Below, piece after piece: positions 2,517 through 25,396 of a stretch of 60,976 bases of DNA. Positions within the stretch are counted from its first letter, which is position 1, and the number at the start of each line of letters is the position of its first letter. Below the pieces are notes generated by a model that worked only from the letters and a program-made list of their open reading frames with translations, searched no databases and was not told the DNA's origin. This stretch comes from Candidatus Woesearchaeota archaeon (lineage in GTDB: Archaea; Nanobdellota; Nanobdellia; Woesearchaeales; DSVV01): NCBI GenBank assembly GCA_018303325.1, contig JAGVYH010000003.1, positions 1-60,976 of the forward strand. The letters run 5' to 3'. Made by a program: the position numbers and the translations under genes.

Positions 2517-3911
2517 TCAACCACTATATCTATACTTAGCCAGGAGAGGAGTTATCTTTCTAAACGCTTTTTGTTGTAATTGATGTACTCTCTGTTTGCT
2601 TATACCTCCTAATTCTTTTGCAACATCTTCTACTATCATTGGCTCTCCGTCCAGCCCCCAATGCAAAGAGATTAGACGTTTTTCTCTTTCACCTAATTGT
2701 TTTAATGCGCGATTAACCGCTTTGCGTAAATCATTTTCTTCTGATATATTTTCTAATATATCTAATGAGCTTTGTTCATTATTAGATATAATCTCCATAA
2801 TAGAACATTTTCTGTTATCTCCTACTGATTTATCCAACTCTAAGATATACATTAAATTTATTCTTGATTCCAAGAATAAAATTTGTTCATCATCAATACC
2901 CATTTTTTTGTATACTTCTTCTTTTTCAGGCTCTCTTCCTAATTCCTTTTTGCATCCTTCTCTTGCTCTTTTATATTCTCTGCATAGTTTATTGAAGCCA
3001 GGCGGAGTTCTTATTAGTCTGCTTTTATTGTCAATTTCTCTGCGGATTTCTCCGTCAATTATTATCCCAGCATAAACACTAAACTTCACGCCTAAACTGC
3101 CATTAAACCGTTCTATAGCTTTCATTAATCCAATATTGCCTTCCTGTATTAAATCTGTAATTTCAAGTTTTCTGGGGTTTGCAAAACCATTGTTTTCATA
3201 TCTTCTGGCAAAGTAAATAACATATCCAAGATATTGCTTGATTATATTTTCCCATGAAGACATATAATTTTTTAATAACACATTTAATTCACCTGCTTTT
3301 TCATCTATCTTGCCTTCTTTACAGCATTCTGTTCTATGATTTTTTTTATAGTTCTCAACAATACGTTCATAATAACTGTTGATAATATGCATTTTCTCAA
3401 GATATCCTGCCATTTCTGCGTATACTCTTTTTGCTCTTTTTTGTTTTTCTTCATCGCTTATTTTATCTTCTGGCTTATTTTGCGCTTCAATTCTTTCATC
3501 TTCTTTTCTTCCAATTTGTTCATCTTCTCTTCTTCTAATTATTTCATCTATTCTTTTGTCAAGTAATTTCATATTACAATAATAATTGGCAATTAATTTG
3601 TATTTTTCATTTTCACTTTTTGTATCTAACCCTGCCAGACTAAAATCTTCGTCAGGATTTGCGATTATTCTTTCAATCTCTCCAAACAATTCTTTTTTGG
3701 CATATCTGCACAAATACTCAAAAAAATTTGTTCTGCTTTGCGCAAGCTGGTGAAATAAATTATTCTCCTCTTTTCGAGAAGGTATTTTTGGAGGACCAAC
3801 TTCAGATAAATAAAGTGAAATAGAGGATAACCTATCTCTCGGCAGCTTGTTTCTATCTTCTTTTGGAGTAATGTTCTCTCTGTATTCTTTTGTGATAGTT
3901 TCGTATACCAT
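2517..3911 (-). CDS. sigma-70 family RNA polymerase sigma factor homolog (RpoD-like, regions 1.2, 2, 3, 4)
   Basis: DLIQEGNIGLMKAIERF..G.KFSVYA (region 2), IRTPPGFNKL...LGREPEKEEV (region 3), LGEREKRLISLHWGL...VEDVAKELGGISKQRVHQLQQKAFRKI (region 4). A long charged insertion sits between regions 1.2 and 2. Confidence 0.85.
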   Translation of the reverse strand: MVYETITKEYRENITPKEDRNKLPRDRLSSISLYLSEVGPPKIPSRKEENNLFHQLAQSRTNFFEYLCRYAKKELFGEIERIIANPDEDFSLAGLDTKSENEKYKLIANYYCNMKLLDKRIDEIIRRREDEQIGRKEDERIEAQNKPEDKISDEEKQKRAKRVYAEMAGYLEKMHIINSYYERIVENYKKNHRTECCKEGKIDEKAGELNVLLKNYMSSWENIIKQYLGYVIYFARRYENNGFANPRKLEITDLIQEGNIGLMKAIERFNGSLGVKFSVYAGIIIDGEIRREIDNKSRLIRTPPGFNKLCREYKRAREGCKKELGREPEKEEVYKKMGIDDEQILFLESRINLMYILELDKSVGDNRKCSIMEIISNNEQSSLDILENISEENDLRKAVNRALKQLGEREKRLISLHWGLDGEPMIVEDVAKELGGISKQRVHQLQQKAFRKITPLLAKYRYSG

Positions 3912-9645: not shown

Positions 9646-9682
9646 TAATTATGATACCTCTTTATTCCTGTTTTGGTTTAAT

Positions 9683-9869
9683 GTATGTGCATAGCTTTTT
9701 CAAGGAGGATACTGCTGCCTCAAATTTGTTTTCTTAGCAGTTTTACTCGTAAGACATCAGGTAACCGAAAACAAAATATATATTCATTGCAACTGCAGAG
9801 AATAAATTATAAAGTTTTCGGCGAAGAAAACTGGCAGTAGCATAATCTCAATGAGAGCTATGCGCATAC
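9683..9869 (+). mobile_element. T-family MITE, copy T1
   Basis: Inverted arms gtatgtgcatagc...ggatactgctgcc / ggcagtagcataatc...gctatgcgcatac. Exact 8-bp direct repeat ggtttaat on both flanks (9675..9682 and 9870..9877). Confidence 0.8.
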
Positions 9870-10786: not shown

Positions 10787-10847
10787 GCACTTTTGTATAT
10801 ACAAATGGAATTAATTTGTTCGAAAACTAATTCCATTTAATATATAC
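10787..10847. repeat. F hairpin, copy F1 (loop gttcgaaaa)
   Basis: aaatggaattaattt-gttcgaaaa-ctaattccattt, flanked by cttttgtatatac / aatatatac. Confidence 0.6.
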
Positions 10848-12083: not shown

Positions 12084-13340
12084 ATGGCACTAGGATTAGA
12101 GACAGAATTAAAAGAACCGCCAGTTTTGAAGGGTTTTTTCCCGAATAATGCAAAAGAACTTCTCGAATCTAGACTAACTGGGAATTTGTTGACGGCAAAT
12201 GTTTATTTTTATCCAGAATGCAATAACCAATGTATAATGTGCTGCGACGGTGATAGTAGAAAAAAAGGGTTTACACATAACGGAAGAAGGATAAAACCAC
12301 TGACTCTTGGAGATTATACACTACTTATAAAAGAATTTGCAAGTATGGGTGTTAAAACATTATTTGTGCCTGGCGCTGGTGAACCATTTTATGTAGATGA
12401 AACAGATGAAAAAACTTATTATGTTGACGAAACCAGTGGAAAAAAAGTTTCAAAATTTCTTAAATTTATAGAAATAGCAAATGGGGAAGGACTGCATGTT
12501 ATTGTTATCTCTTCTTTAAATCCTGAGCCAAGCGATGAACTTGTAGCAGAACTTAAAGGACTAAATGTTTCCATAATTGGAAAGCTCGAATCAATGATTC
12601 CTGAACGATTTAATGCTATTGTTAATCCAAACAAACCGTATAATTTTTCTAGAATCAAAGGGTATGGGCATGTTACAAGAGGACTAAAAAAGTTAATGGA
12701 AGCAGGATTTAATGAACCTGATAAAAATGGTCAGGTAAGGTTAGGTTCTGGAACAGTAATACATAATTTTAACAAGGATGAAGCAGAGAATATCTTTCGT
12801 TTTTATAGAGATTTTGATATTTGGCCGTATATGCAGATTATAGCGCCACGTGAGAGAGCAGCAAAACGCTCTGATTTATGGGGTGGAATAGATAAATTTG
12901 AGATATTCAGTAAATTATTAGAAATCGACGAAAAAGAATATGGTTACACATGGGATCTTCATTATAGACGAGTAGCATTTGACTTTGTTTACCCAACAAT
13001 TATTGTTTATTATAGTGGGGATGTACTCTTTAATGCATTTTTCAGATACTATTTAGGTAGTGTTTATGATGATAATGATCATTATACAGATGGAGAAATA
13101 ACAAGAATTGCAAATTCAAACCCTGCCAAATGGCTTAGAAAAATTCATTTTTCAATTGGTGGAGAAAAAGAATGTTCCCCATATGATCATTCAAAATGTG
13201 GAAAGATACTTTTAGAACCATTTTTTGATCCAGGAGAGATAACCAAGAGGATACCAGAAGATTTTTTTAAGAATAATCCAAATGATTATTGTCCCTTCTT
13301 TAGTTCTTGTACACAGGATAAGTATACTGGAGTAAAATAG
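12084..13340 (+). CDS. radical SAM enzyme with Cys-rich C-terminal region
   Basis: CxxxCxxC at YPECNNQCIMCC. C-terminal cysteines (KECSPYDHSKCG ... YCPFFSSC) suggest an auxiliary cluster. ATG 12084 is preceded by ggaggg; the ORF-track TTG 12069 is less likely. Confidence 0.65.
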   Translation: MALGLETELKEPPVLKGFFPNNAKELLESRLTGNLLTANVYFYPECNNQCIMCCDGDSRKKGFTHNGRRIKPLTLGDYTLLIKEFASMGVKTLFVPGAGEPFYVDETDEKTYYVDETSGKKVSKFLKFIEIANGEGLHVIVISSLNPEPSDELVAELKGLNVSIIGKLESMIPERFNAIVNPNKPYNFSRIKGYGHVTRGLKKLMEAGFNEPDKNGQVRLGSGTVIHNFNKDEAENIFRFYRDFDIWPYMQIIAPRERAAKRSDLWGGIDKFEIFSKLLEIDEKEYGYTWDLHYRRVAFDFVYPTIIVYYSGDVLFNAFFRYYLGSVYDDNDHYTDGEITRIANSNPAKWLRKIHFSIGGEKECSPYDHSKCGKILLEPFFDPGEITKRIPEDFFKNNPNDYCPFFSSCTQDKYTGVK

Positions 13341-13376
13341 AAAAGAAGATAATCAAATAAAAAAACAAAAATCTCC

Positions 13377-15491
13377 TTAATTTCCCTTCGTCATCTCTTT
13401 CTGCATCTCGCCCATCATCTCCCTCTCAACATTCGGGCTGAATTTGAAGGAGTACCAAAGATATACATCACGTGGCATTTCTCCTATGACGGGTATGTGT
13501 TTCTCTTGAAGTAATTTTGGAAGCTGTTCTTGCGACTCTTTTATCCAGTTTTTGGCAGATTTATAATCACCTTCTTGTTGGATGGTCATAATTTTAAGCG
13601 CAGTTTCATAAAATGCATCATATATTTGTGGGTTATCCAAATCAATCTTGTATTTTCCTTCAGGTGTTTCTACTATTACTCCTGCTTTGTAAAGCTCAGC
13701 AAACTGCAAAATAGAGCCTGTGCCATGTGGATCATCAACTCCATAAGACAATCCTCTTAAATAGCTAGGAATTATTGAAATAAGGGCATTTTTCCATTCT
13801 TCTTCTGAGATTAAGTTCTGCCTAACTGCTTGTCCTAATATTGCCATTCCTAACAAATCTGCTTTTGCCTCTTCTAAAGCATGAGCATATTCCCCTAATT
13901 TACTAATTATATAACTATTACTCGGACCAAGACCATGAGCCATTTCATGTGCTACCACCCAAATAATACTATCTTCACCAATTAAGTCTGCTAATTGTTT
14001 TTGATCCATCACCACCTTAGCCATTGGCAATGAAACCAAATCCATTCTTGCAGTTATATTATTAAGTGCAATCACATTTTTATAGAATTCCGTTCTACCA
14101 AATGGTTCAATGTTTGGAAACTTCTTCGCACCGCCAACATATCCGCCGGAACGGCTATCACCACTATATATTGTATCAGCAAAAACAAGGGGTGGTTGAA
14201 ACTTTGTAAAATCACGGATAGCGTACCCTTCCCCAAGATTTACACTTATTTTATTCTCAGTTGGTTGAATAAGTTGCTGGAGTGTTTGTCCAACTTTAGT
14301 ATAACTTTCGTTTATTATACCTATGTTCATTTCCATCATTCCAATCCTTTCAAAAGCACCATGATATTCTTCATTGTTACCAACAAGCACGTCTAACAAT
14401 GATTTCTGTTTTATCCACAAGAGATCTCCTGATTGATAGGGGGATGGATTTTTCAAATCTAAAAACTCATTAGCTCTAATAAGAAAATAATTGCTAAGAG
14501 AAGTGTCTATTCCTATAATTTTTACTAATTCTTCTAGTTCTTTACTTAATCTTCTTAATTCATCTTTATAATAAGGGCTATTGTTTATGGAATCCCATGT
14601 TAGAGAACCATTGCCACTCCACACAACATTTACAAAATGGCTCATTATAGGATCGTTGGGTGAGCTTTTTATTCTATTAATATCTTCTTGAGTAAACCCT
14701 GAAGGCCATTGCCCTGCATTAGGCACTTTCTTTGGGAAGTCAGGATGTGAACTGCATAAATCATCTTTAACTGTTAAACACCATACGCCACCGCTAATAT
14801 TTAAGTGAAGATAATCTTCTAACTCACCTTTTTTTATTAAGTCTATACGATATTTTAAGTTGTTTGGATCTCTTTGAGCAAGAAATACTTTTTCCACAAA
14901 TGGTGTGACTTTGTAGAGCAAGTTCCATGCTACTTTTTGATATGCTTCTGGAAGAATGCTAAAGTCTATATTATGTTTAGCCCATTGTCGAAATGTCTGA
15001 TCTAAATCACGCAAAGTCTTTCGTAAATGTTGTTTATTTTCTTCAGATGAATTCTTTTTATAAGCTTCTTCTGCAGACTTAACTTTACTTCTAATCTTTT
15101 TTATATAATCTTGGTTGTGCGGTTTTAGAGATGGTGCTAGTTTAACACCTTGCTCTGTTAGAGAGACAGCATTTTCCAACAATTTAGGATCAGAATTAAT
15201 ATCATTCGGAACATTAACCAATTCAGATGTTTCAACTTTCCCATTTTTGTTAACATCTTTCCATAACATATAAACTCCTAAATTATAAGAAGCAGTGTTA
15301 AATTCTTTCTCTTGCTTAGAAAAAAATGATTGCTGTGTTTCATCTTGAATTTCTTGTGCACCTTGTTGATGCTGTTGCGCAATCGCTTCTCCACCAACAA
15401 ACATGCTTGCTCCTGCTAATGTTCCAACTAAAACTTTTTTTATTTTATCTGTTATAGATTTATCTTTTATCATTTTTTTATCTTTCACCAT
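13377..15491 (-). CDS. secreted zinc metalloprotease (HExxH ... EExxAD, M49/DPP III-like arrangement)
   Basis: Signal/TM VLVGTLAGASMFVGGEAIA. VVAHEMAHGLGP followed by LEEAKADLLG. aggtggtggg RBS before the ATG. Confidence 0.65.
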   Translation of the reverse strand: MVKDKKMIKDKSITDKIKKVLVGTLAGASMFVGGEAIAQQHQQGAQEIQDETQQSFFSKQEKEFNTASYNLGVYMLWKDVNKNGKVETSELVNVPNDINSDPKLLENAVSLTEQGVKLAPSLKPHNQDYIKKIRSKVKSAEEAYKKNSSEENKQHLRKTLRDLDQTFRQWAKHNIDFSILPEAYQKVAWNLLYKVTPFVEKVFLAQRDPNNLKYRIDLIKKGELEDYLHLNISGGVWCLTVKDDLCSSHPDFPKKVPNAGQWPSGFTQEDINRIKSSPNDPIMSHFVNVVWSGNGSLTWDSINNSPYYKDELRRLSKELEELVKIIGIDTSLSNYFLIRANEFLDLKNPSPYQSGDLLWIKQKSLLDVLVGNNEEYHGAFERIGMMEMNIGIINESYTKVGQTLQQLIQPTENKISVNLGEGYAIRDFTKFQPPLVFADTIYSGDSRSGGYVGGAKKFPNIEPFGRTEFYKNVIALNNITARMDLVSLPMAKVVMDQKQLADLIGEDSIIWVVAHEMAHGLGPSNSYIISKLGEYAHALEEAKADLLGMAILGQAVRQNLISEEEWKNALISIIPSYLRGLSYGVDDPHGTGSILQFAELYKAGVIVETPEGKYKIDLDNPQIYDAFYETALKIMTIQQEGDYKSAKNWIKESQEQLPKLLQEKHIPVIGEMPRDVYLWYSFKFSPNVEREMMGEMQKEMTKGN

Positions 15492-15544
15492 TTTATCCCA
15501 CCACCTAATTAGTTAGAACTTATTAGGTGAAAGAACTATACACA

Positions 15545-15630
15545 AAGACAAATGATAAAATCTGCGACAGAAATTTTTACGAAAAGAGAAGAATTATTGC
15601 ATTAAAACAATGTTATGGAAAATATTAAAC
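15545..15630 (-). promoter_or_regulatory. conserved upstream module M4
   Basis: aaatgataaaatctgcgacagaaatttttacgaaaag...gttatggaaaatatt, alignable to M1/M2. Confidence 0.4.
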
Positions 15631-15678
15631 TGTTTAAGAAGATAAACAGAAAAATGAGTTTCGACAAAAGTATTTACA

Positions 15679-16893
15679 CTATCTTACACTATCATATTGT
15701 TTAATCAGTGCCCTAATGCTATCAACGAAATCATATACTAACAAGATACTTTCTTCTGGTGTGTTCTTTGTTAGGTCTGGTTTGATTTTTCTTTTCACCA
15801 CAGAATAATCCCATTTTAATAATACAAATTCTGTTTTTCCTGACTCAAATGGGCTGTTCATGAAACTACCACTGTAGTTCTCAGATAAGTATGAAACTAT
15901 TTCTTGTTTGATGGAATAATATAAGTGATTAAACTTGCCCCCCCAATCACCTTCCAAATTATTTCCATACTTATCTACTCCATTTTTCTTCCCGACATTA
16001 AAATCATCTATTTCTATCACTAGCTCACAAGCCCAACTATCTAACAAGGATACTAAGTCATTTCCTTGATAATGTTCATCATCACCAACTATTTTTATTT
16101 TGATTGATCCATGTTTATTTTCATGATTAATTTTGTGAGAAGAAATAAGATACATAATACGAGCGTATAGTTCGTTCACATGATCTTCCGTCATCATAAT
16201 ATCTCCTGCATCAAGTAAGCCTGAAACCCCTGTTAGTTTATATTCAATAGCACTAATCTCTACATATGCAAGTTCATCATTTATAATTACGCCTTTTACA
16301 TATATAATATCATCTAATTTAAAACTCATTAACTCTTTTTTGTTACAATTATTTTCTGAATTGTTCTCATCTTCTCCACAGTCCAATACAAAATAATGTA
16401 ACTCTGAATTCCAGATACCACCAGATAAACCAAATGCATTTAGAACATGTGTGGCTTCTTCAAATATTTGATCGGTGAATCGTTTTTCACAATTTTCGTT
16501 CTGACAACAGTCCATATCATCCATATAGTCAAACTCGCCACAATAGGTTGATACAAATGATTGAAATGAGTTAGGGATTCCATAATACTCAATCCTCGGC
16601 GCAAATCTTTCCAATGTTTCTTCTCTAGAAAGAACTTCTTGTTGTGTTATCGTTGGTTGTGTTTGTGGTGAGATGTATATTATACTGCTGGCTAACGCAG
16701 CAATACCTGCACCAACCAGCGCGCCAATCTTCCAGTAATTTTTATCTTTCTTTCCAGCAAGCTCTTTAATCCTTTCAGGAGAATAAGTTAATCCTCTGAC
16801 TCCGCCATCGCAGGTATTCCACGCATGGTTGCCTCTGACTATTTCTGTGAGTTCTACATCTCTTGGTTCATGTGGATTTTGTTTGTCAGCCAT
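15679..16893 (-). CDS. handle-family paralog 1 (404 aa): conserved N-terminal handle + TM + divergent C-terminal domain
   Basis: VRGNHAWNTCDGGVRGLTYSPERIKELAGKKDKNYWKIGALVGAGIAALA, then a unique acidic Cys-containing domain. Confidence 0.7.
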   Translation of the reverse strand: MADKQNPHEPRDVELTEIVRGNHAWNTCDGGVRGLTYSPERIKELAGKKDKNYWKIGALVGAGIAALASSIIYISPQTQPTITQQEVLSREETLERFAPRIEYYGIPNSFQSFVSTYCGEFDYMDDMDCCQNENCEKRFTDQIFEEATHVLNAFGLSGGIWNSELHYFVLDCGEDENNSENNCNKKELMSFKLDDIIYVKGVIINDELAYVEISAIEYKLTGVSGLLDAGDIMMTEDHVNELYARIMYLISSHKINHENKHGSIKIKIVGDDEHYQGNDLVSLLDSWACELVIEIDDFNVGKKNGVDKYGNNLEGDWGGKFNHLYYSIKQEIVSYLSENYSGSFMNSPFESGKTEFVLLKWDYSVVKRKIKPDLTKNTPEESILLVYDFVDSIRALIKQYDSVR

Positions 16894-17030
16894 TGTGTAA
16901 ATGGAATATAATTATCTGAATCATAAAACTTACCTTGGGATTTTTTATGAAAATGAAGGAATCACGGATTAAATTGTGATTTTAGTGAATGCTTGTTAAT
17001 AATGTCCCTCAAATGTTCTAAACCAATCTA

Positions 17031-17210
17031 TAGCAAAGGCACTAAATTTTCGTAATTAATGATGCCTTTGCTATATATAGTAAGTGACGTAAATTTTTAT
17101 ACAAATCGTGTCACTTACTATATTTGTCGGACATAACACTTGGTATAAATATTTATGTCCGACATTATACGTGGACTTTAACAAAAAAGATACGAATATT
17201 AAAGTCCACC
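17031..17210 (+). repeat. H hairpin-module array, left copy (four hairpins)
   Basis: Four modules: tagcaaaggc/gcctttgcta, tagtaagtgac/gtcacttacta, tgtcggacataa/ttatgtccgaca, gtggacttta/taaagtccac. The reverse complement is near-identical to 23473..23702. Confidence 0.85.
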
Positions 17211-17213
17211 CCT

Positions 17214-18731
17214 CTAATACAATTCAAGGTCTTTTGTATATACTGTTAATGGTGGAAACTTCATATTCCATTTAAAATACCGATCTCTTGATTTGTCATG
17301 CCCATATTTTAATAGTGTACTAAACACATCAACAAGTCGGTATAACAATAGTGCGTTATTTTCAGGCGTATTTTCTATGTCACCATAAATTATTATTGTC
17401 TTCTCCTCTGAGACAAAACTAGATAATGTTTCTTCTTTTTTACTCCTTCTTCTTGCCTCTTGAATATTTTTTCTTATCGAGTGTTCTGCATCAAATACAG
17501 GTTCTAACATGGTTTCAATAATTTCATACATTATATCAACTGCTCCAGTTACTTCATCATAATAATAAATTATACCTAATTTAGATAATGCACTATTTAT
17601 ATTCCACATTAGTGTGAGTCGCATAGAAAAAAGTCCCCGTCGAATGCTTGACCATGAGTTTACGTCATCAATTATGTTACAATCAGCCCATCTATCATAC
17701 TTAGAAGGTAGATCATGAGTTATTCTACAAACATTATGTTCAAACCACCCATCATATGGCATATTTATACTGAAGCTATAACTACTTGCAAAAATCTGTG
17801 TTTTATTAACCTCATCAGTCTGTTTTGCATTTGATTCTTCAAGTGTCACTTTCAGCATTCCGTGTAATGGTAATAATTTGAAATGATAATAACTGATTAT
17901 TGGCCCATATATTTTAAAATTATCTAATTCTTTCTTGTTGTCCATTATGTACTGTTTTTCTAAATATAGTTCATCTATGGTATGCTTTACAGCTCTTATT
18001 TCCAAGTAAGGCTGCACTCCTTCTTTTATTACACCCTTAACACTTAGTATGTCTTCCAGTGGCAAACTTAATTTTTCATTCTCTTTGCAAACATCACCTT
18101 CTTCAGATGATTTGCATTCATAAGATAAGCAATGTATCTCTGGAATATATCTCTTTTCAAAGAACCCATTTTCATATCGTGGAATATATTCGACTTCATC
18201 ACTATTTGAAACCCACCCTTTATAACAAAATTTTTTTAATAATGAGGGCAATTTATCAGTATAATCTCCTTTGTACTTCTCACTTATCTTCTTTACCTCT
18301 TGACTATCCAAGTCTGTTATGTAGTCCCACTCATTGTTTTTACTTAATGTATTTTTTTCAATTCCTTCAGTATAATCCTCTTCAACCCCATAATATTCTA
18401 TTGTTGGATCAACATTTTCCAATATATTCTCAAGAGAAACTGCCGTGGTTTGACTCTGTTGAGATAACTTTGTTATTTCTAATGTTGCTTTAGATGCAGT
18501 AAAATATAATATTCCAACAAGCAATGTAGCAACCCCACCACTCACCAACGCTCCAATCTTCCAATAATTCTTTTTATGTTTTTTTTCAGCAAGCTCTCTA
18601 ACTCTTTCAGCAGAATAAAGTAATCCTCTGACACCGCCATTGCAGGTATTCCATGCATGGTTGCCTCTGATTCGTTCGTCTGTTTTGACTTTATCATCTA
18701 TGGTTTGCGGTGATTGTGTTTCATTTGGCAT
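17214..18731 (-). CDS. handle-family paralog 2 (505 aa)
   Basis: IRGNHAWNTCNGGVRGLLYSAERVRELAEKKHKKNYWKIGALVSGGVATLL + divergent domain. Confidence 0.7.
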   Translation of the reverse strand: MPNETQSPQTIDDKVKTDERIRGNHAWNTCNGGVRGLLYSAERVRELAEKKHKKNYWKIGALVSGGVATLLVGILYFTASKATLEITKLSQQSQTTAVSLENILENVDPTIEYYGVEEDYTEGIEKNTLSKNNEWDYITDLDSQEVKKISEKYKGDYTDKLPSLLKKFCYKGWVSNSDEVEYIPRYENGFFEKRYIPEIHCLSYECKSSEEGDVCKENEKLSLPLEDILSVKGVIKEGVQPYLEIRAVKHTIDELYLEKQYIMDNKKELDNFKIYGPIISYYHFKLLPLHGMLKVTLEESNAKQTDEVNKTQIFASSYSFSINMPYDGWFEHNVCRITHDLPSKYDRWADCNIIDDVNSWSSIRRGLFSMRLTLMWNINSALSKLGIIYYYDEVTGAVDIMYEIIETMLEPVFDAEHSIRKNIQEARRRSKKEETLSSFVSEEKTIIIYGDIENTPENNALLLYRLVDVFSTLLKYGHDKSRDRYFKWNMKFPPLTVYTKDLELY

Positions 18732-18818
18732 ATTTTAAACCTAATCTCATTATTATTAATTAAAAATTAGATCACAAAGAATCTCTTTTTTTGTGTACTT
18801 CTTCTTATCAGTTCTTAA

Positions 18819-20432
18819 TCACCACGCCGTACCGCCGGTTGGATGGCATGTTTTTTCTGTAAGTTCTCCCAATGTTGTTTCCAAGAGGGGAGTATTAATA
18901 TAAGGTTCTAATGCTTGGTAAACTTTAAATAATTCTACATTTTTCTCTATTTCAGTATCAAATACTTGTACACACATTATTATCTTTTCGAGATATCCAA
19001 ATAGTTCTTCTATTTCAGTTTGGTTTTTAAGTTTTGAGAAAAAACCAAGATAGCTTTTTATAAGATTATTTGTTCTTAGATATGGTAAAACCTTTTCAAT
19101 ATGTTTGAAGATTGCGGAAACAGTTTCTCTATCTTTTTCGCTGTCATCTACACCATCTAAGTATGAATGTGCTATACTATACATAATAGAAACCATTTCA
19201 GGATTGTCTGTGCTTACTCTAATATCATACATAATTATATCATCATGTAAATTTAATATATTATTATAAATATATGTTCTAAGCAAATTTGCTAGTTTAT
19301 GAATATCATCAATCCTTTCCTCCTCAGCAAGTGTCGTCTTGCCTGTAAATACATGCTCTCTTCTTTCAGTAGTCCATCTAACAAGTTCTAATTCATACTC
19401 GATGTCACCATGTTTGTTCACATCTCTTGCTATTTTCTTCTGAAGTCGACAAGCCATTTTTTCAAGTGCAGTAAATGATTTCCAATAATCTTCCTCGCAA
19501 TACTTAAGTTCAATATTGTATTTTTTACATTGAACAATCAATTCTTCTTTACTCATGCAACTGCCAACTCTTTTATCCAATTTTATATCTTGTTTAGAGT
19601 CATCATTATAAACTAATCTGAATATTATTTTTGGAAGAGTGCTATCGTCAATAAGATAATATCCTTCATCTTTTTCATCTCCTTCTGTTTTTTGTAGTGT
19701 TAATGATGAGAAAGCCATAACAAGCGCTAAATCTTTTAGTTTGCCGTAATCTATTTTAATATCATACTCTTTTTTAATCCACCACACAAAATTAGGCTCA
19801 TTATCTAAAACATGTTGTGAAAAATCAGTTAAAGTATAATCATCTTTACCACCAACTATAATTACCTTGCCCTGAATTGATTCATCATATTTTATTACTC
19901 TTTCATCAAAAGTAAGTGTAACCGAAGAAGAACTAATTGAATCGTTATTAATAATACCAACAACATCTAATAAATTATTAAGAGAAGGTGTGATGCCTGC
20001 ATCACAAAACAGACCATCACCATTCCCAACATATCCTCTTTCACAAAATGATTCTAAGGCAGAATTAATCTTTTCTCTTACTTCTCTTAAGGTAAGACCT
20101 TTTATTACTTTACCTTTATATTGTTCTATATTACTAATTTGTTCAACTGGTGGTTCAATCTTAGACCAGCCCTCTCTTTCATCTGTTGATGTCAAGAATA
20201 ATATTGAAGTAGTAGCTACTGCAGTAAACACAGCAATCCCACTCACCAGCGCCCCAATCTTCCAGTAATTCTTTTTATGTTTCTTCCCAGCAAGCTCTAT
20301 AACTCTTTCAGCAGAATAAAGTAATCCTCTTACACCACCTTCAGTCTTTTCATGCCATGCAAAGTTATTTCTAGCTCGCTCTTCTGTGTTGACTTTCTCG
20401 TCGAGAGTTTGGGTCAAGTTTTTGTTTGACAT
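18819..20432 (-). CDS. handle-family paralog 3 (537 aa), degenerate handle
   Basis: ARNNFAWHEKTEGGVRGLLYSAERVIELAGKKHKKNYWKIGALVSGIAVF + divergent domain. Confidence 0.7.
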   Translation of the reverse strand: MSNKNLTQTLDEKVNTEERARNNFAWHEKTEGGVRGLLYSAERVIELAGKKHKKNYWKIGALVSGIAVFTAVATTSILFLTSTDEREGWSKIEPPVEQISNIEQYKGKVIKGLTLREVREKINSALESFCERGYVGNGDGLFCDAGITPSLNNLLDVVGIINNDSISSSSVTLTFDERVIKYDESIQGKVIIVGGKDDYTLTDFSQHVLDNEPNFVWWIKKEYDIKIDYGKLKDLALVMAFSSLTLQKTEGDEKDEGYYLIDDSTLPKIIFRLVYNDDSKQDIKLDKRVGSCMSKEELIVQCKKYNIELKYCEEDYWKSFTALEKMACRLQKKIARDVNKHGDIEYELELVRWTTERREHVFTGKTTLAEEERIDDIHKLANLLRTYIYNNILNLHDDIIMYDIRVSTDNPEMVSIMYSIAHSYLDGVDDSEKDRETVSAIFKHIEKVLPYLRTNNLIKSYLGFFSKLKNQTEIEELFGYLEKIIMCVQVFDTEIEKNVELFKVYQALEPYINTPLLETTLGELTEKTCHPTGGTAW

Positions 20433-20464
20433 TATTTATGTGCATTATTTAATTTTTATATTAT

Positions 20465-22051
20465 TCACTCTATTTTTGTATGTGTTGTTTGTTTGTACAA
20501 TAATTTTAGTATCTCTTTATTATTCATCTCTTTGTAAAGCAAAAAGATAAACTCTAATGGTGTTCTAAAAGCATCAGCCAATTGCATCATTAATGACGTG
20601 TTCTCTTCAGTTGACAGTGTAGGATTATGTTTAATTATAATTTCCTTTGTGTCTGCTTCAAATGCCATAAAAGTTCTTGTAACAACTCGTGTAGGATTAT
20701 TCTCACATTCGTCAGGAAAAAAGGAGTAAGTAAATGGGTAAACTTCTTCTGCATTCAGTTTTGGTTTGTACACATCTCCATTTGGATCATATTCAGCAAT
20801 TTTCTTTATTAAAAAAGCAGGTCCATTATTATAATCGAATCTAGATGCAGGAATACTAATTCTTTGCTCATCATCACTTTGAAAGCTTTTAAAATAAAAA
20901 TCTATTGCAATTAATCTATAAATTGTTTCATCATCATACATATATTCATCAGTTATACCATCATAATACGTATCCTCATCAGTTGTATCATTATCTATTT
21001 TCATCCATGTAAAGCCGTAAGGAGTTAGATACTCAACATACCTGAATTCAATCCTTGCTTTTTCTAGCTGTTCAGAATTTATTTCATCTCCTAAATTAAG
21101 TTCTAATTGTACTTCTAATCCAATAATTAAATCAATAAAAAAGTTAGAATCACTTAGAACTTCAGAAACAGTACGGGTTCTTTTCTGATACGATGTTTCC
21201 TCATTATCTCTTGTAATCTTACCCATTGTCTTACCTATAACACTTTCTATTTTTTCTAGTTCATCCAAAACTTGTAGTTCTGCGATAGTGTTATCAAATA
21301 TCTCTTCTTCGTATTTATCTATAATTAAGTTAGGTTCACCTTTCTTTAATTTAAGAATTAATCTTGGTGTATATCCTTCATCAAATTCTACCCTCACATC
21401 TTTAATATCACTTAAATCGTTATCCACTATTTCTTTCAGCTCTTCAGTTACACACTCTTTCTCAAAGCTAACGATCACCTCGCTAGTTTTTTTATTATAT
21501 GTTTTGTTTGGTTTAGTTTCATATTTTAAACAATAGTTTTCAAGACAAGTTATCTTCATATCATCAGAAGCACTTACAAAACAAAAATCATTCATTACAT
21601 TTTCTATTAAATCATCTATTCCAAGCAAACTATCGGTTCCTAAACTAGAATCAAACCAACCTTCTACTTTTTCTTTTAAACCATCTATTGCTAGTAGATT
21701 ATATGCCCCATTGAAGTCAAACCAACTAATTCCACGATATGTGTCAACAACATTAAATGGTGTTTCTACTTTAATTTCTTCTTTTTCAGGATTTTCAACA
21801 ATTATTTCAGGATTCGGGGGAGCAAGCGGCGAAGTAAAATATAATAATCCAGATACTATCGCAGCAATCCCACCACCAACCAACGCGCCAATTCTCCAAT
21901 AATTCTTTTTATGTCTCTTCTCAGCAAGCTCTTTAATCTTTTCAGCAGAATAAACTAATCCTCTGACTCCACCATCGCAGGTATTCCACGCATGGTTGCC
22001 TCTTCTATTCTCTTCTACTTTTTGTTCAGAATTTTCTTTTTCCTTTGCCAA
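20465..22051 (-). CDS. handle-family paralog 4 (528 aa)
   Basis: RRGNHAWNTCDGGVRGLVYSAEKIKELAEKRHKKNYWRIGALVGGGIAAIV + divergent acidic domain. TTG start with agggg upstream. Confidence 0.65.
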   Translation of the reverse strand: MAKEKENSEQKVEENRRGNHAWNTCDGGVRGLVYSAEKIKELAEKRHKKNYWRIGALVGGGIAAIVSGLLYFTSPLAPPNPEIIVENPEKEEIKVETPFNVVDTYRGISWFDFNGAYNLLAIDGLKEKVEGWFDSSLGTDSLLGIDDLIENVMNDFCFVSASDDMKITCLENYCLKYETKPNKTYNKKTSEVIVSFEKECVTEELKEIVDNDLSDIKDVRVEFDEGYTPRLILKLKKGEPNLIIDKYEEEIFDNTIAELQVLDELEKIESVIGKTMGKITRDNEETSYQKRTRTVSEVLSDSNFFIDLIIGLEVQLELNLGDEINSEQLEKARIEFRYVEYLTPYGFTWMKIDNDTTDEDTYYDGITDEYMYDDETIYRLIAIDFYFKSFQSDDEQRISIPASRFDYNNGPAFLIKKIAEYDPNGDVYKPKLNAEEVYPFTYSFFPDECENNPTRVVTRTFMAFEADTKEIIIKHNPTLSTEENTSLMMQLADAFRTPLEFIFLLYKEMNNKEILKLLYKQTTHTKIE

Positions 22052-22073
22052 TTAATAACCCCTAAATTTGTTA

Positions 22074-23414
22074 TTACGCTTTTTTACTTCTTTTAGAATC
22101 TCTTATATATCTGGTCCAATCATGCCAAGTATTTAGCCTTCTGAATACTGTAAATAATCTATCAACTTCTGGGCTTTCTTCTTTTATCAAATGGATATCA
22201 GAATAATCCTTTTCTTTTGGAGGAAGATTTTGTTTATATCTGAATACTCTCATTTTATCTTCTTTTGTAGTTAAAACTAAATTATATCCCTCTTGTCCTT
22301 TTTCATTTTGTCCTTTTTCGCTTTTATATTCCCTCCCAAAAAAATAATTAACAAAATGTATTGGACCTTGTGGTGGATAGTGGCTGCTAAAACAAGAATT
22401 TACAAATAATCCTCTTTTTGTTTTAGCTGCCATCACCAAAACATAATCATAAACTAATTCATAAAGAAAATCTCTCAATTTTACTTCTTCTTCACTAAAT
22501 ATTTCTTCTATAATTCGGTCAGGTATTTTTTCATCTTTCTTATCATCTTTAGTATAATCTTCTATACTTTTCACTGATTCAGGTTTAAACCATGGAACAC
22601 CAAACACACCTTCAATCACAAGATATTTATTACCTGTTTTATTGCCTTTTTTATCCACTTCTTCTGCATCAACAAGAATAGCAACAATTTGTGCTGGAGC
22701 ATTTTGTGTTTTCTTAAATCCTTCTGTTATTTTTGGTGTGATAAGAAGATAGTGTATATGTTCATCAGCACAATCAAGCATTGCAGCTCTCATCTCATAA
22801 TCTCCATTGAATTTACAAGTATTAACATCATGATAAAGATTTCTCCATATAGAATCTGAAAACATTACTCCATATCGCTGATTTCTAAATAGTTTTTCAA
22901 CAGAAGCAAAAACACAAGAATTACTATCTTTTGGCAATGTTTTATTATAATTCTTAATAAGGTAACATATTAAACGCAAAGCGTCAATTGGATTTCCTTC
23001 CTTTTCAAGAAAATGTTCACCAATATTTTTAAATTTCTCACTTTTTATAATTTTATATCTATCTTTTGTTATTTCCACACATGTTGAGGTTGTTGTTGGC
23101 TCAAGGACAACTTCATTAAGAAATCTTAAAATATTTTCATTTGGGCTGCTTTTTTCTTTAAATATCTGCTTTAAATATTTGGAGTCACTTCCAAAATAAA
23201 ATTCTTGGCATAATACTAATACATTTCCTGCAAATTCTTCATATGTATAATCAAATTTAATTTTTCCTATTTTACCAATTTCTTTTATTGGCTCTATACT
23301 CGCTTTACAGAATTCAACAACTCGTTTAAAATTAGAACCATTAATACCACCAAGGCTAGCTACTAATTCAGGATTTTCTTGTATTTTAGCTTGAACAATA
23401 TCTTCTATTCCCAT
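22074..23414 (-). CDS. hypothetical soluble protein (446 aa), first gene of the paralog cluster
   Basis: Long intact ORF 22 nt upstream of paralog 4; no TM segment, no recognised motif. Confidence 0.6.
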   Translation of the reverse strand: MGIEDIVQAKIQENPELVASLGGINGSNFKRVVEFCKASIEPIKEIGKIGKIKFDYTYEEFAGNVLVLCQEFYFGSDSKYLKQIFKEKSSPNENILRFLNEVVLEPTTTSTCVEITKDRYKIIKSEKFKNIGEHFLEKEGNPIDALRLICYLIKNYNKTLPKDSNSCVFASVEKLFRNQRYGVMFSDSIWRNLYHDVNTCKFNGDYEMRAAMLDCADEHIHYLLITPKITEGFKKTQNAPAQIVAILVDAEEVDKKGNKTGNKYLVIEGVFGVPWFKPESVKSIEDYTKDDKKDEKIPDRIIEEIFSEEEVKLRDFLYELVYDYVLVMAAKTKRGLFVNSCFSSHYPPQGPIHFVNYFFGREYKSEKGQNEKGQEGYNLVLTTKEDKMRVFRYKQNLPPKEKDYSDIHLIKEESPEVDRLFTVFRRLNTWHDWTRYIRDSKRSKKA

Positions 23415-23472
23415 CTACCCCACCCCACAACTATTTATAATAATTGTAATAATTATAATCCTTACACATAGT

Positions 23473-23702
23473 GGTGGACTTTAATATTCGTATCTTTTTT
23501 GTTAAAGTCCATGTATAATGTCGGACATAAATATTTATACCAAGTGTTATGTCCGACAAAGGTTGGAAAGCAAAGCTTTCTAACCTCTCAGGAATCTCTG
23601 ATTCCCGAGATATAGTAAGTGACACGATTTGTATAAAAATTTACGTCACTTACTATATATAGCAAAGGCAACGTTAATTACGGAAATTTAGTGCCTTTGC
23701 TA
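23473..23702 (-). repeat. H hairpin-module array, right copy (six hairpins), inverted relative to 17031..17210
   Basis: Same four modules in reverse complement, plus a 51-bp insert carrying two extra hairpins (ggttggaaagc/gctttctaacc and tctcaggaatc/gattcccgaga). Confidence 0.85.
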
Positions 23703-23821
23703 CATAACCCAATTCTAAACTAAAGGTACACCATATCCATATATAAATCTTACCTTTATTATTACTTATAAATAGTCACATACCCACAATCTTTAAAAAG
23801 AGAGCCAAGTTCCATAACAAG

Positions 23822-24874
23822 ATGGACTTAGACACATTATTGGAACAAAACTATGAAGAGTTAAAGGACCCTGAATGTAAAAAGAAGGTTCTTGAATATC
23901 TGGCTGAGCATGAGACAGTGGAAGATGAAGAAGTTGTATTTATAAAACGCCTGACAAAGACTGCAAGCCACATTATTAAGTCAGACCCTGATTCAATTGA
24001 TGAGTTTCTGGAGGATTTATATACTTTTAATCTAACAGGAGCTAAGAAAGCGTTTTCAATTCTTAATGATAAAGAAAATAAAGATTATAGTTCAAATCAA
24101 TTGCTGAACATGACACTGCATTTTCTTACTTACGCAGGAGATATAGCAATGGTTTTGTTTAAAAAAACAGGCGACATCTTCTGGGCAGAGAAATGGTATG
24201 ACCTTCATCGTAAATCTGCTGATACTGGCATGGGAATAGATACTAAACACTCTGTGTACGTTTATAGTTTTGCAGGCAATGCAGCAAGAGCATTGTTCGA
24301 TAAGACAGGCGATATTACCTGGGCAGAGAAATGGTATGATTCTTATTATAAATCCGCAGAGTCAAGCAAAGACTTCAATAAAAAACATTCAGTACATTGT
24401 TATGGTTTTGCAGGCAATGCAGCAAGAGCATTGTTCGATAAGACAGGCGATATTACTTGGGCAGAGAAATGGCATGAATGTTACAAGCTCTCAGCAGAAC
24501 TAAGCAGTGAGTTTGACCTTGCTTCATTTGACCCTACATCTGTTGAAGCACTCTCAACAATTTGTTATGACCCAAAACATTCAGCACATGCCTATAGCTT
24601 TGCAGGATTTGCTGCAAAAGAAAGATTCAAAAAGAGGCCGGAAACTGAGCGCACAGAAACCAAATGGGCAGAAGAGGCGATTAGTTGTTATCAGAAATTT
24701 TTAGCTTACTATAAACCAATTTATTGTATTGAAGGCGAGAACAAATCCAGACCAGAGGGACTGATTCACAAGATAAATAGTGATATCTCTTATTTAAAGA
24801 GGCAAATAGATTATATTTCGAAACAATTAGCTGCTCACAACAGAGATGTTGGACACAGTCCAACCACTGTGTAA
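23822..24874 (+). CDS. helical repeat protein (350 aa)
   Basis: Three to four repeats of KHSxxxYxFAGNAARALFDKTGDITWAEKWYDxYxKSAE. Two DNA copies (from ~24268 and ~24406) are nearly identical over ~70 nt. Confidence 0.6.
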   Translation: MDLDTLLEQNYEELKDPECKKKVLEYLAEHETVEDEEVVFIKRLTKTASHIIKSDPDSIDEFLEDLYTFNLTGAKKAFSILNDKENKDYSSNQLLNMTLHFLTYAGDIAMVLFKKTGDIFWAEKWYDLHRKSADTGMGIDTKHSVYVYSFAGNAARALFDKTGDITWAEKWYDSYYKSAESSKDFNKKHSVHCYGFAGNAARALFDKTGDITWAEKWHECYKLSAELSSEFDLASFDPTSVEALSTICYDPKHSAHAYSFAGFAAKERFKKRPETERTETKWAEEAISCYQKFLAYYKPIYCIEGENKSRPEGLIHKINSDISYLKRQIDYISKQLAAHNRDVGHSPTTV

Positions 24875-25028
24875 TAAACTTGTGAAGTGCGCACTCCAAA
24901 AAGAAAGTTTGGTGTTGCATTTTTAAAGCCTGACACTCATTTTTATAAACTTTTTAGTTTTAAACTTTTTAGTTTATAAAAAAGATGGCAAGATTGCATA
25001 TAATAAAACATCTAAATCTTCAATAAAC

Positions 25029-25252
25029 GTATTTGTTTAGTTCTTGGCATGTCCAACACGTTCACAAAGATAAAATAGTAAGTCGTTAGTCGTAGGTCGT
25101 TTGTCGTCAGCTGTTTTTTACGTTTTTCCGTTTACGACTAACGACAAACGACTTACGACAAACAGTTTAATTAGTGAGACGGTGGACTGCGTCCCACAAA
25201 CGAGTAGAAAGCAGAAAAAAAGATGAAAAAAAGAAATCAGCTAAACAAATAC
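25029..25252 (-). mobile_element. P element, copy P1 (core of GTCGTNN heptamers)
   Basis: Ends gtatttgtttag...ctaaacaaatac. Flanks caataaac / caataaaa (7 of 8). Inner conserved boxes ttggcatgtccaacacgttcac and gacggtggactgcgtcccacaaacg. Confidence 0.7.
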
Positions 25253-25396
25253 CAATAAAAGATTTATCTAAACCTAAATGAGCTGTCACAAAGTCAATAA
25301 ATTTCAAAAATCCAAAAACTTTATATATCTCTTAACTTAGGGTTTATATAATATAATAATTAATATAATACATTAAATTATAAATAGGTCATCATA

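What the first reader, a model, noticed from the sequence alone, without database searches (positions are those of the whole stretch)
15679..23414. Array of four divergent paralogs sharing a conserved N-terminal handle (RGNHAWNTCDGGVRGL...NYWKIGALV + TM), headed by an unknown 446-aa gene
Four consecutive minus-strand genes (404, 505, 537, 528 aa) open with the same ~60-aa module: RGNHAWNTC[DN]GGVRGLxYSxE[RK][IV]xELAxK[KR]xKNYW[KR]IGALV, followed by one hydrophobic helix. Copy 3 is degenerate (RNNFAWHEKTEGGVRGL). Past the helix, the 330-460-aa acidic, Cys-containing regions cannot be aligned by eye, apart from a short tail motif (ENTPE..LL.Y..VD.F..L in copies 1, 2 and 4). About 130 nt encoding the handle are still recognisably similar at DNA level between all four copies; the rest is not. 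That pattern suggests conservation or gene conversion of the 5' handle and diversification of the predicted external part. A soluble 446-aa protein with no recognisable motif sits at the head of the cluster. I recognise no described family with this handle. The topology (short conserved cytoplasmic N-terminus, TM, variable exterior) fits a polymorphic surface receptor or adhesin set, which would be a new host-interaction module for a small-genome archaeon.
Basis: partly seen in the sequence, partly recalled or inferred. Interest (0 to 1): 0.78.

Follow-up and report, generated by a model that had tools for sequence, protein, structure and literature searches.

The report
Shared-handle membrane protein array in Woesearchaeota
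A few groundwater DPANN archaea carry a gene cluster found nowhere else: one soluble protein followed by three or four single-pass membrane proteins that share a swapped-around 40-residue inner "handle" and fast-evolving outer domains, and what it does is still unknown.

Summary
Five consecutive minus-strand genes sit exactly as described. Four of them (404, 505, 537 and 528 aa) share a ~41-residue motif followed by one TM helix. About 135 nt of handle DNA align between all four copies.

No library gave a match: Pfam, NCBIfam, PADLOC, PHROGs, PDB sequences, and Foldseek against PDB and BFVD. An exhaustive HMMER search of 1.84 billion proteins found only about 8 true cluster representatives. 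The only named relatives are NCBI "Candidatus Woesearchaeota archaeon" proteins.

New findings:
- **Head linkage.** The 446-aa head gene is linked to the array in three genomes (86% and 38% identity).
- **Handle exchange.** Handle and outer-domain relationships disagree. W_c1 and L1_617 have unrelated outer domains, yet their handles differ by only dS 0.17, the between-genome level.
- **Fast outer domains.** They evolve at dN/dS ~0.5-0.6, against 0.07-0.2 for the handle and flanking genes.
- **Shared base.** The outer domains are not unrelated. All keep a membrane-proximal Y-x-G / F-C / L-x-C / D-V-x-G-x-I skeleton.
- **Copy 3.** Its handle is a recurring subtype, not decay.
- **Flanking repeat.** A 183-nt four-hairpin repeat, 97-98% identical and inverted, flanks head to c2.

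The proposed adhesin or receptor role fits the predicted topology but was not tested.

The parts
22074..23414 (-). Head gene: 446-aa soluble protein, no TM segment, pI 7.5, 8 Cys
   Evidence: ORF. No TM segment. The ortholog in L001 is 86% identical and also heads the array. A 38%-identical homolog, P0011 in L004, is followed 20 nt later by a gene starting MVEKESSESKLEEKLRGNHAWNTCD. No Pfam, NCBIfam, PADLOC, PHROGs or PDB match. The AF2 model is poor (pLDDT 53.5) and has no fold match.
20465..22051 (-). Copy 4 (c4): 528 aa, TTG start 22 nt after the head stop; handle + TM + acidic outer domain
   Evidence: Its positional counterpart in L001 (865 aa) keeps the same leader, LAKEK(E/D)NSEQ, but has a handle with an insertion and a different outer domain. 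Population variants carry two homopolymer frameshifts and a 36-nt deletion that removes the start codon.
18819..20432 (-). Copy 3 (c3): 537 aa, variant handle RNNFAWHEKTEGGVRGL; core outer domain plus a C-terminal extension of about 140 aa
   Evidence: Orthologs are L1_617 (69% identity) and P0014/L9_391 (54%), which ends just after the tail-like helix. The same handle subtype occurs in L010.
17214..18731 (-). Copy 2 (c2): 505 aa
   Evidence: Its outer domain is homologous to the c1 type (E 4e-11). Tail motif scores 82 bits. No ortholog in L001.
15679..16893 (-). Copy 1 (c1): 404 aa, separated from c2 by a 320-nt gap, probably with its own promoter (TATA-like ATAATTATATT at about 15-25 nt before the ATG; sequence reading only)
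   Evidence: Orthologs are L1_402 (43%), L2_382 (48%) and P0008 (48%). AF2 model: pLDDT 61.7, with the outer domain mostly at 70-83.
16672..16836 (-). c1 handle core (aa 20-60) plus TM segment (aa 56-74)
   Evidence: repeat family D1.
18501..18668 (-). c2 handle core (aa 22-63) plus TM segment (aa 59-77)
20193..20372 (-). c3 handle core (aa 21-63) plus TM segment (aa 62-80)
21836..22003 (-). c4 handle core (aa 17-58) plus TM segment (aa 54-72)
17031..17213 (.). Left copy of a four-hairpin intergenic repeat. It starts right after the c2 stop codon and lies 138 nt upstream of c1. Whether it belongs to the module is not shown.
   Evidence: Inverted repeats I1 and I2 (93 nt at 97% and 91 nt at 98%). 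Sequence. The RNA fold gives 4 perfect hairpins, -73.8 kcal/mol, z -11.5.
23470..23702 (.). Right, inverted copy of the same repeat, with about 50 nt extra (two more hairpins). It lies 56 nt upstream of the head ATG and 120 nt upstream of the divergent gene at 23822.
   Evidence: A third partial copy lies at 1705-1809.

Best explanation
**What it is (shown).** This is a lineage-restricted gene module. One conserved soluble protein (head) is followed by a tandem array of at least 3-4 single-pass membrane proteins. Each array protein has:
- a basic N-terminal segment of about 55 residues, containing the ~41-residue handle R-G-x-x-A-W...G-G-V-R-G-L...K-N-Y-W-K-I-G-A-L-V;
- one TM helix;
- an acidic, Cys-containing C-terminal region of 300-780 residues.

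**Handle exchange (shown).** The handle is kept uniform by purifying selection and by recombination between array members.

**Outer-domain evolution (shown).** The C-terminal regions evolve several-fold faster than the handle and flanking genes. They gain and lose C-terminal extensions. Whole copies are gained, lost and reordered between genomes.

**Topology (inferred).** The handle faces the cytoplasm and the variable region faces outward (positive-inside rule).

**Mechanism (inferred).** The invariant handle is a common docking peptide for one cytoplasmic partner. The co-inherited head protein is the obvious candidate. A single intracellular machine would thereby serve a changing repertoire of surface-exposed domains that bind external ligands, such as host or partner cell surfaces or other environmental targets.

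The module's existence, the handle exchange and the fast outer-domain evolution are well supported. The docking idea and the binding function are hypotheses.
For: - **Anatomy.**: one TM segment; N-flank net charge +3 to +7 against C-flank -2 to +1; outer-domain pI 4.4-5.1; 4-17 Cys.
- **Conserved Cys.** Two conserved Cys (F-C and L-x-C) sit in a membrane-proximal skeleton shared by all 13 members. This fits an extracytoplasmic disulfide.
- **Arrays are general.** Every locus with enough sequence shows tandem handle genes: L001 has 3, L002 plus L004 at least 3, L008 at least 2, L009 at least 2, L010 at least 3.
- **Head linkage.** Head precedes the array in the window, in L001 and in L004. The head family is as narrowly distributed as the handle family (4 clusters).
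- **Handle exchange.**
  - L1_402 has a c1-type outer domain, but its N-terminus is closest to L1_617 and W_c2 (74% and 71%) rather than to W_c1 (55%).
  - The W_c1 and L1_617 handles are 90% identical with dS 0.17, within the between-genome ortholog range (0.18-0.31), although their outer domains are unrelated.
  - Paralog handles use the same codon at 72-88% of identical residues, against 48% expected (P 5e-3 to 4e-6).
  - The L004 and L002 contigs both end inside the handle.
- **Rates (dN/dS).** c1 outer domain 0.63, c3 outer domain 0.50, handle about 0.2, w704 0.22, rSAM 0.10, AsnC 0.07.
Against: - No experimental or homology evidence exists for any function.
- Both AF2 models are of low to moderate confidence, and neither gives a fold match.
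- N-glycosylation sequons are not enriched.
- Within-population variants are almost invariant, so there is no sign of ongoing hypervariation.
- Head-handle binding is inferred from co-occurrence in only three loci.
- The dS and dN estimates come from 41 codons, or from saturated and poorly alignable outer domains, and are rough.
- The whole family is known from about six related metagenomic genomes.
Confidence: 0.5

Rival explanations
1. Transmembrane signalling set, working like anti-sigma factors or one-component sensors. The variable outer domains sense different signals. The shared cytoplasmic handle sequesters or activates one cytoplasmic regulator, which could be the head protein or the sigma-70-like protein encoded nearby.
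For: The topology matches that of bitopic anti-sigma factors: a short conserved cytoplasmic N-terminus, one TM segment and a variable exterior. A sigma-70-like gene (regions 2, 3 and 4) lies in the same conserved neighbourhood in the window (2517-3911) and in L001.
Against: No zf-HC2, RskA or other anti-sigma model matches any of 8 members, even at E up to 10. The handle has a single, non-invariant Cys and no HxxxCxxC motif. The sigma gene is 6-12 kb away and not adjacent. A large sensor repertoire would be unusual for a reduced genome (inference).
Confidence: 0.17
2. Envelope scaffold proteins that work like PilN/PilO, GspL/M or FtsN. In this reading, bitopic proteins use their conserved N-terminal peptide to clamp onto a cytoplasmic protein (head), and their outer parts form a structural assembly rather than binding ligands.
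For: The architecture is the same: a cytoplasmic partner gene followed by bitopic proteins with a conserved N-terminal peptide. This analogy to PilM-PilN comes from my own knowledge. There is a weak VirB8 hit over the TM region of c4 (E 0.089). The outer domains keep a shared skeleton.
Against: Structural scaffolds are normally single-copy and slowly evolving. Here copy number, gene order and outer-domain sequence change between close relatives. c4 is disrupted in several population variants. No pilus or secretion ATPase was found among the scanned neighbours. The VirB8 hit is below the Pfam threshold and covers little beyond the TM segment.
Confidence: 0.13
3. The handle is an extended, conserved signal peptide, in the manner of YSIRK, ESPR or KxYKxGKxW extensions. 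It would be cleaved after export, so the mature proteins are secreted or wall-associated and the handle only serves targeting.
For: The conserved motif sits immediately N-terminal to the hydrophobic segment. K-N-Y-W-K-I-G loosely recalls the motifs of extended signal peptides (sequence reading plus my own knowledge).
Against: No YSIRK, ESPR or TIGR03715 model hit. The hydrophobic segment is 19-23 residues, which is anchor-length, and no conserved A-x-A type site follows it. The N-region of about 55 residues is far longer than known extensions.
Confidence: 0.1
4. Polymorphic toxin or effector array: a conserved N-terminal trafficking module joined to variable C-terminal toxic domains.
For: Conserved N-terminus, variable C-terminus and tandem arrangement.
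Against: Intergenic gaps of 22-87 nt leave no room for immunity ORFs. No toxin domain hit. The extreme C-terminal tail helix is conserved in c1 and c2, which is the opposite of polymorphic toxins. The variable region begins right at the membrane.
Confidence: 0.04

Closest known systems
Tandem surface or secreted multigene families homogenised by ectopic recombination (yeast FLO adhesins, PMC3512402; M. tuberculosis PE/PPE, PMC13061034; bacterial antigen families reviewed in PMC4534519)
   Same: Tandem paralogs with one conserved end and one fast-evolving end. Mosaic genes arise by recombination between paralogs. Gene content turns over between close relatives.
   Different: There is no sequence or fold relationship. 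The conserved part here is a cytoplasmic juxtamembrane peptide of an N-terminally anchored archaeal protein. No repeats, no silent cassettes and no strain-level hypervariation were seen.
Bitopic anti-sigma factors (RsiW, RskA, zf-HC2 class)
   Same: Short conserved cytoplasmic N-terminal domain, one TM segment, variable extracytoplasmic domain. A sigma-70-like gene lies in the neighbourhood.
   Different: No model hit and no zinc-binding HxxxCxxC motif. The array is not adjacent to the sigma gene. It is a multi-copy tandem array.
PilM-PilN type pairs, in which a cytoplasmic protein binds the conserved N-terminal peptide of a bitopic partner
   Same: Gene order (a soluble protein followed by bitopic proteins) and a conserved N-terminal cytoplasmic peptide.
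   Different: No homology detected. The head fold is unknown. Several fast-evolving paralogs take the place of one conserved partner.
VirB8 (PF04335)
   Same: Bitopic N-in topology. A sub-threshold Pfam hit over c4 residues 45-99.
   Different: 13.1 bits against a cut-off of 23.2. It is seen in only 1 of 8 members and covers essentially the TM region. No NTF2-like fold match.

Membership tests
Any curated protein family (Pfam-A, NCBIfam, PADLOC, PHROGs) | Score at or above the curated or significant threshold for the handle, the outer domain or the head protein | tested here: not met
   Nothing scored better than E 0.0097, and every hit was below its cut-off.
Anti-sigma factor (zf-HC2 / RskA type) | N-terminal anti-sigma domain with an HxxxCxxC zinc motif | tested here: not met
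   No Pfam hit at E up to 10 in 8 members. The handle alignment shows one variable Cys and no such motif.
Anti-sigma factor (zf-HC2 / RskA type) | Gene adjacent to, or co-transcribed with, its sigma factor | tested here: not met
   The sigma-70-like gene is about 12 kb away in the window and about 6 kb away in L001.
Polymorphic toxin systems | Recognisable C-terminal toxin domain with a cognate immunity gene immediately downstream | tested here: not met
   No toxin domain hits. Gaps of 22, 32 and 87 nt hold no ORFs.
DGR (diversity-generating retroelement) targets | Reverse transcriptase plus a template/variable repeat pair | tested here: not met
   No TR/VR-like direct repeat in 13000-26000 apart from the handle. 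No RT among the scanned ORFs. Population variants differ by single residues only.
Archaeal class III (type IV pilin-like) signal peptides | Short N-region (under about 30 aa) and a [KRDE][GA][ALIFQMVED] cleavage motif directly before the hydrophobic stretch | tested here: not met
   The N-region is about 55 aa. The sequence before the helix is K-I-G-A-L-V, with an extra residue between K and G. This is sequence reading only.
Extended signal peptides (YSIRK, ESPR, KxYKxGKxW) | Match to the family model and a cleavable signal peptide | tested here: not met
   No Pfam or NCBIfam hit. The hydrophobic segment is 19-23 aa. Cleavage itself cannot be tested here.
VirB8 | Pfam PF04335 at or above gathering score, with an NTF2-like periplasmic domain | tested here: not met
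   13.1 bits against 23.2, in one member only. No fold match.
Invertible-segment (shufflon or Vlp-like) phase variation | Inverted repeats flanking the segment, a site-specific recombinase, and both orientations present in the population | tested here: inconclusive
   The IRs are present (183 nt, 97-98% identical). No recombinase was found among the scanned ORFs. The one strain-variant scaffold examined (L011) has the same orientation. The same repeat has a third copy elsewhere in the window.
Concerted-evolution multigene family (a kind, not a sequence family) | The conserved segment shows phylogeny discordant with the rest of the gene, and synonymous similarity beyond codon bias | tested here: met

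The most novel reading that the evidence does not exclude
The head protein and the handle form a previously unknown archaeal 'plug-and-socket' surface system. One cytoplasmic machine docks onto a universal juxtamembrane peptide. Recombination at the handle lets the cell re-assort or replace surface recognition domains, and these domains determine which host cells these DPANN archaea attach to. The flanking hairpin repeats and the recurrent c4 knock-outs would then be part of an on/off control.
Probability: 0.12. Interest if true: 0.72.

Novelty: new variant of a known kind. Interest (0 to 1): 0.42.

Why it matters
How DPANN archaea recognise and hold on to their hosts is largely unknown, and no Woesearchaeota is in culture (my own knowledge, not checked here). 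This family is lineage-specific, membrane-anchored and fast-evolving, has a recombining common handle and comes with a dedicated cytoplasmic partner gene. That makes it a concrete, testable candidate for the recognition layer.

It is also a clear small-scale case of concerted evolution restricted to a cytoplasmic peptide in an archaeon.

The limits are real. The family is confined to a handful of related groundwater genomes, and nothing yet ties it to any function. Its general importance is therefore uncertain.

Tried and rejected
- **Family libraries.** Pfam, NCBIfam, PADLOC and PHROGs scans of all five proteins and of the neighbours gave nothing.
- **PDB sequence profiles.** Profiles of the head, the handle and the c1-type outer domain gave nothing.
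- **Structure.** The AF2 model of c1 (pLDDT 61.7) was searched with Foldseek against PDB and BFVD. The AF2 model of head (pLDDT 53.5) was searched against PDB. No match had E below 0.04 and all TM-scores were below 0.2. A scatter of alpha-tubulin acetyltransferase hits for head (E above 3) was discarded as noise.
- **Exhaustive HMMER.** Two hits, P0013 and P0016, are repeat proteins (an HYR-like domain array and an insect cuticle protein) that accumulate score over 7-12 stretches. They were rejected as spurious.
- **Collection scans.** The JGI metagenome scan was run twice (with the handle and with the c1 outer domain) and the IMG/VR scan once, with no relatives found. The GTDB scan found only the L001 contig.
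- **Broadened handle profile.** A word-indexed search with the 13-sequence alignment A8 returned nothing, not even known members. This looks like a candidate-selection failure of the tool (my inference), so the result is uninformative.
- **Profile-profile comparison.** hhalign of c1-type against c3-type outer domains gave probability 3.9% and E 0.011. This is not significant, and only the FC...G and DV.G.I.ND motifs align.
- **Tail motif.** A local HMM finds it robustly in c1 and c2, marginally in c4, and not in c3.
- **Rejected readings.** DGR, polymorphic toxin, class III signal peptide and Tat signal were all considered and rejected (see the membership tests).
- **Hairpin repeat in other loci.** No copies were found in the other fetched loci.

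Full report
**1. Observation**

- c1, 15679-16893, 404 aa
- c2, 17214-18731, 505 aa
- c3, 18819-20432, 537 aa
- c4, 20465-22051, 528 aa, with a TTG start behind an AGGGG Shine-Dalgarno-like box
- head, 22074-23414, 446 aa

Intergenic gaps are 22, 32, 87 and 320 nt.

The four array proteins share a block with 28 invariant positions in residues 17-60. A single hydrophobic segment of about 19 residues follows.

About 135 nt encoding the handle align in all four copies at 77-88% identity. The rest of the genes do not align at DNA level.

The similarity is far beyond chance. The handle profile retrieves family members at E 1e-32 to 1e-37 in a library of 1.84 billion proteins.

**2. Whose genome**

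The window encodes a sigma-70-like protein, GyrB and a YkuD transpeptidase. It also encodes PAC2 and AsnC-type regulators.

Close relatives of the array proteins, the head gene and the flanking genes are NCBI proteins named "Candidatus Woesearchaeota archaeon". They come from a groundwater MAG contig, JACQSP010000103. AsnC is 96% identical and the radical-SAM neighbour 93% identical.

**3. Distribution**

- A word-indexed search of 5.8 billion proteins found 8 clusters.
- An exhaustive HMMER search of 1.84 billion representatives with the handle profile found 10 hits. Two of them (P0013 and P0016) are repeat-protein artefacts.
- One GTDB species representative carries the family.
- JGI metagenome and IMG/VR scans found nothing.
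- The head protein is equally rare, with 4 clusters.

No Pfam, NCBIfam, PADLOC, PHROGs or PDB sequence match exists for any of the five proteins.

The AF2 models (c1 pLDDT 61.7, head pLDDT 53.5) gave no Foldseek match.

'No described family' is thus confirmed as far as these tools reach.

**4. The module is conserved as a unit**

| Locus | Genes seen |
|---|---|
| L001 | head (86% identical), then three handle genes (865, 617, 402 aa), then the ortholog of the downstream 704-aa gene, then radical-SAM, AsnC, M20 and sigma-70 |
| L004 | a 38%-identical head homolog, followed 20 nt later by a gene beginning ...LRGNHAWNTCD, where the contig ends |
| L002 (same sample as L004) | begins NHAWNTCDGG... 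and carries two handle genes |
| L008 | at least two tandem handle genes |
| L009 | at least two tandem handle genes |
| L010 | at least three tandem handle genes |

Contigs that break inside the handle are what an assembler does at a repeated sequence (inference).

**5. Handle against outer domain**

Outer domains fall into orthology groups that cross genomes:
- c3, L1_617 and L9_391 (54-70% identity)
- c1, L1_402, L2_382 and P0008 (43-55% identity)

The N-terminal parts group differently:
- L1_402 is closest to L1_617 and W_c2 (74% and 71%), not to W_c1 (55%).
- W_c1 is closest to L1_617 (79%).
- The two L008 copies and the two L009 copies share genome-specific handle variants.

In the 41-codon core, the W_c1 and L1_617 handles differ by dS 0.17. 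That is within the range for orthologous housekeeping neighbours between the two genomes (0.18-0.31). Their outer domains are nevertheless unrelated.

Window paralogs differ by dS 0.27-0.65. They use the same codon at 72-88% of identical residues, against 48% expected from the window's codon usage (P 5e-3 to 4e-6).

The handle has therefore been exchanged between array members after the outer-domain types diverged.

Copy 3's odd handle (RNNFAWHEKTEGGVRGL) recurs in L010 (RARNNFAWHKNPKGGVRGLL). It is a second handle subtype, not decay. A third subtype, with a DD(V/I)(N/S)xEYARL insertion, occurs in L1_865 and in both L008 copies.

**6. Outer-domain evolution**

| Region | dN/dS (window vs L001; handle = window paralogs) |
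|---|---|
| c1-type outer domain | 0.63 |
| c3-type outer domain | 0.50 |
| head | about 0.4 |
| w704 | 0.22 |
| handle core | about 0.2 |
| radical-SAM | 0.10 |
| AsnC | 0.07 |

All values are (Nei-Gojobori, rough).

c2 and c4 have no ortholog in L001. The position of c4 is taken there by an 865-aa protein that keeps c4's first 17 residues and TTG start but little else. Gene order also differs in L010.

There is no hypervariation within a population, however. Full-length variants of c1-c4 differ by single residues.

**7. The outer domains are not unrelated**

- c1 and c2 outer domains are homologous (E 4e-11).
- A local alignment of the first ~190 residues after the TM segment shows a common skeleton across the 13 members: E-x-Y-x-G, a helix ending L-x-x-F-C, a second Cys in L-x-C, and a D-[IV]-x-[DE]-V-x-G-x-I strand.
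- Profile-profile comparison of c1-type against c3-type is not significant on its own.
- The tail motif is strong in c1-type proteins and c2, and marginal in c4. It is only a look-alike in c3-type proteins, where it is followed by extensions of 140-220 aa.

The best reading is one ancestral scaffold that has diverged heavily, with variable C-terminal add-ons.

**8. Topology and likely mechanism**

Each protein has one TM segment. Net charge is +3 to +7 on the N-side and -2 to +1 on the C-side. The C-terminal regions are acidic (pI 4.4-5.1) with 4-17 Cys. This predicts N-in/C-out.

The handle is therefore a cytoplasmic juxtamembrane peptide. Strict conservation and homogenisation of such a peptide is most simply explained by a shared cytoplasmic binding partner.

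The head protein is soluble, always first in the cluster, evolves more slowly than the outer domains and has the same phyletic range. It is the leading candidate (inference).

The fast-evolving exterior suggests interaction with changing external targets (inference). Nothing here distinguishes adhesion from sensing.

**9. Rivals**

- **Anti-sigma-like signalling.** It has the right topology and a sigma-70-like gene in the conserved neighbourhood. There is no domain match and no adjacency.
- **PilN or VirB8-like scaffold.** It fits the gene order but not the turnover.
- **Cleaved extended signal peptide.** It is disfavoured by the anchor-length helix.
- **Polymorphic toxins and DGR targets.** Both are excluded by anatomy.

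**10. Extra features**

A 183-nt element made of four perfect hairpins lies directly after the c2 stop codon, at 17031-17213. As RNA it folds at -73.8 kcal/mol with z -11.5.

The same element lies inverted, at 97-98% identity, at 23470-23702 upstream of head. That copy has two extra hairpins. Together the two copies bracket head-c4-c3-c2.

A third partial copy lies at 1705-1809, and the window holds many other intergenic repeat families. The element is therefore a dispersed intergenic repeat.

Recombination between the two flanking copies could invert the 6.3-kb block. The one strain-variant scaffold examined has the same orientation, and no recombinase was seen.

c4 is disrupted in three different ways in population variants: two homopolymer frameshifts, and a 36-nt deletion that removes the head stop codon and the c4 start. 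Assembly error cannot be excluded.

**11. Verdict**

The evolutionary interpretation, a conserved and converted handle with diversifying exteriors, is supported. The adhesin or host-interaction function remains a reasonable but untested hypothesis.

The protein families are new, while the evolutionary pattern is a known kind. Interest is moderate.

Noticed in passing
window 17031-17213 and 23470-23702 (also 1705-1809): A four-hairpin intergenic element of 183 nt is present as a 97-98% identical inverted pair bracketing head-c4-c3-c2. The right copy has two extra hairpins. A third partial copy lies upstream of the SNase-like gene. As RNA it folds at -73.8 kcal/mol (z -11.5). It could act as terminator, operator or recombination substrate. 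No copies were found in the other fetched loci.
   Followed up: partly
window 20465-22051 (c4); L011 3840-3860; proteins P0021-P0025: c4 is disrupted in several assemblies of the same population. One variant has an extra A in an A-run (giving GDEIKF*). Another has lost a T in a T-run. A third has a 36-nt deletion that removes the head stop codon, the spacer and the c4 TTG start. These may be real on/off variation or pseudogenisation, or they may be assembly errors.
   Followed up: partly
window 3972-5417 (-), next to the sigma-70-like gene at 2517-3911: A 481-aa protein is built of about 11 very regular tandem 34-aa repeats (SLARTxSIYxFLDSRHxQKATNKIVExxPxVLxY). The DNA period is 102 nt and the copies are 75-79% identical. 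It matches Pfam mTERF at E 4e-19. The array looks TALE-like in its regularity and may be a modular nucleic-acid binder.
   Followed up: no
window 2517-3911, 48462-49499, 54711-56828: Bacterial-type genes occur in a genome whose closest relatives are named Woesearchaeota: a sigma-70 homolog with regions 2, 3 and 4, a YkuD L,D-transpeptidase and GyrB. The sigma gene is syntenic with the array neighbourhood in L001.
   Followed up: no
window 13377-15491 (-): The 704-aa gene downstream of c1 has an N-terminal hydrophobic signal-like segment and HEMAHGLGP...EEAKADLLG, a zinc-metallopeptidase-like HExxH plus EExxA motif. It matches no Pfam or NCBIfam model. It follows the array in L001 (67% identity) but sits elsewhere in L002.
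   Followed up: partly
window 23822-24874 (+): The divergently transcribed 350-aa protein contains internal repeats (KHSV..YSFAGNAARALFDKTGDITWAEKWY) that are also visible as 62-nt DNA repeats. Its upstream region shares the hairpin element with c1, in the same relative orientation.
   Followed up: no
window-wide, e.g. 9678-9869 / 48188-48425, 52729-52861 / 54499-54631 / 59249-59381, 10796-10838 / 48298-48347 / 59569-59611, 31550-31667 / 51211-51342: Many families of conserved intergenic repeats, often palindromic and 40-130 nt long, are scattered through the window. The genome seems rich in dispersed structured intergenic elements.
   Followed up: no
L004 end (4159-4233) and L002 start (2-40): Two contigs from the same sample (SRR22387754) both end inside the handle-coding sequence. 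This is what would be expected if near-identical handle DNA in several paralogs breaks the assembly.
   Followed up: no
window 25397-48168 (+): A run of very large proteins (771, 1219, 1868, 508 and 1033 aa) has only faint Ig-like or adhesin-like Pfam hints. They are interspersed with nucleotidyltransferase, Schlafen-AlbA2 and AAA_14 genes. This looks like a variable region enriched in probable surface proteins and defence or TA-like genes.
   Followed up: no
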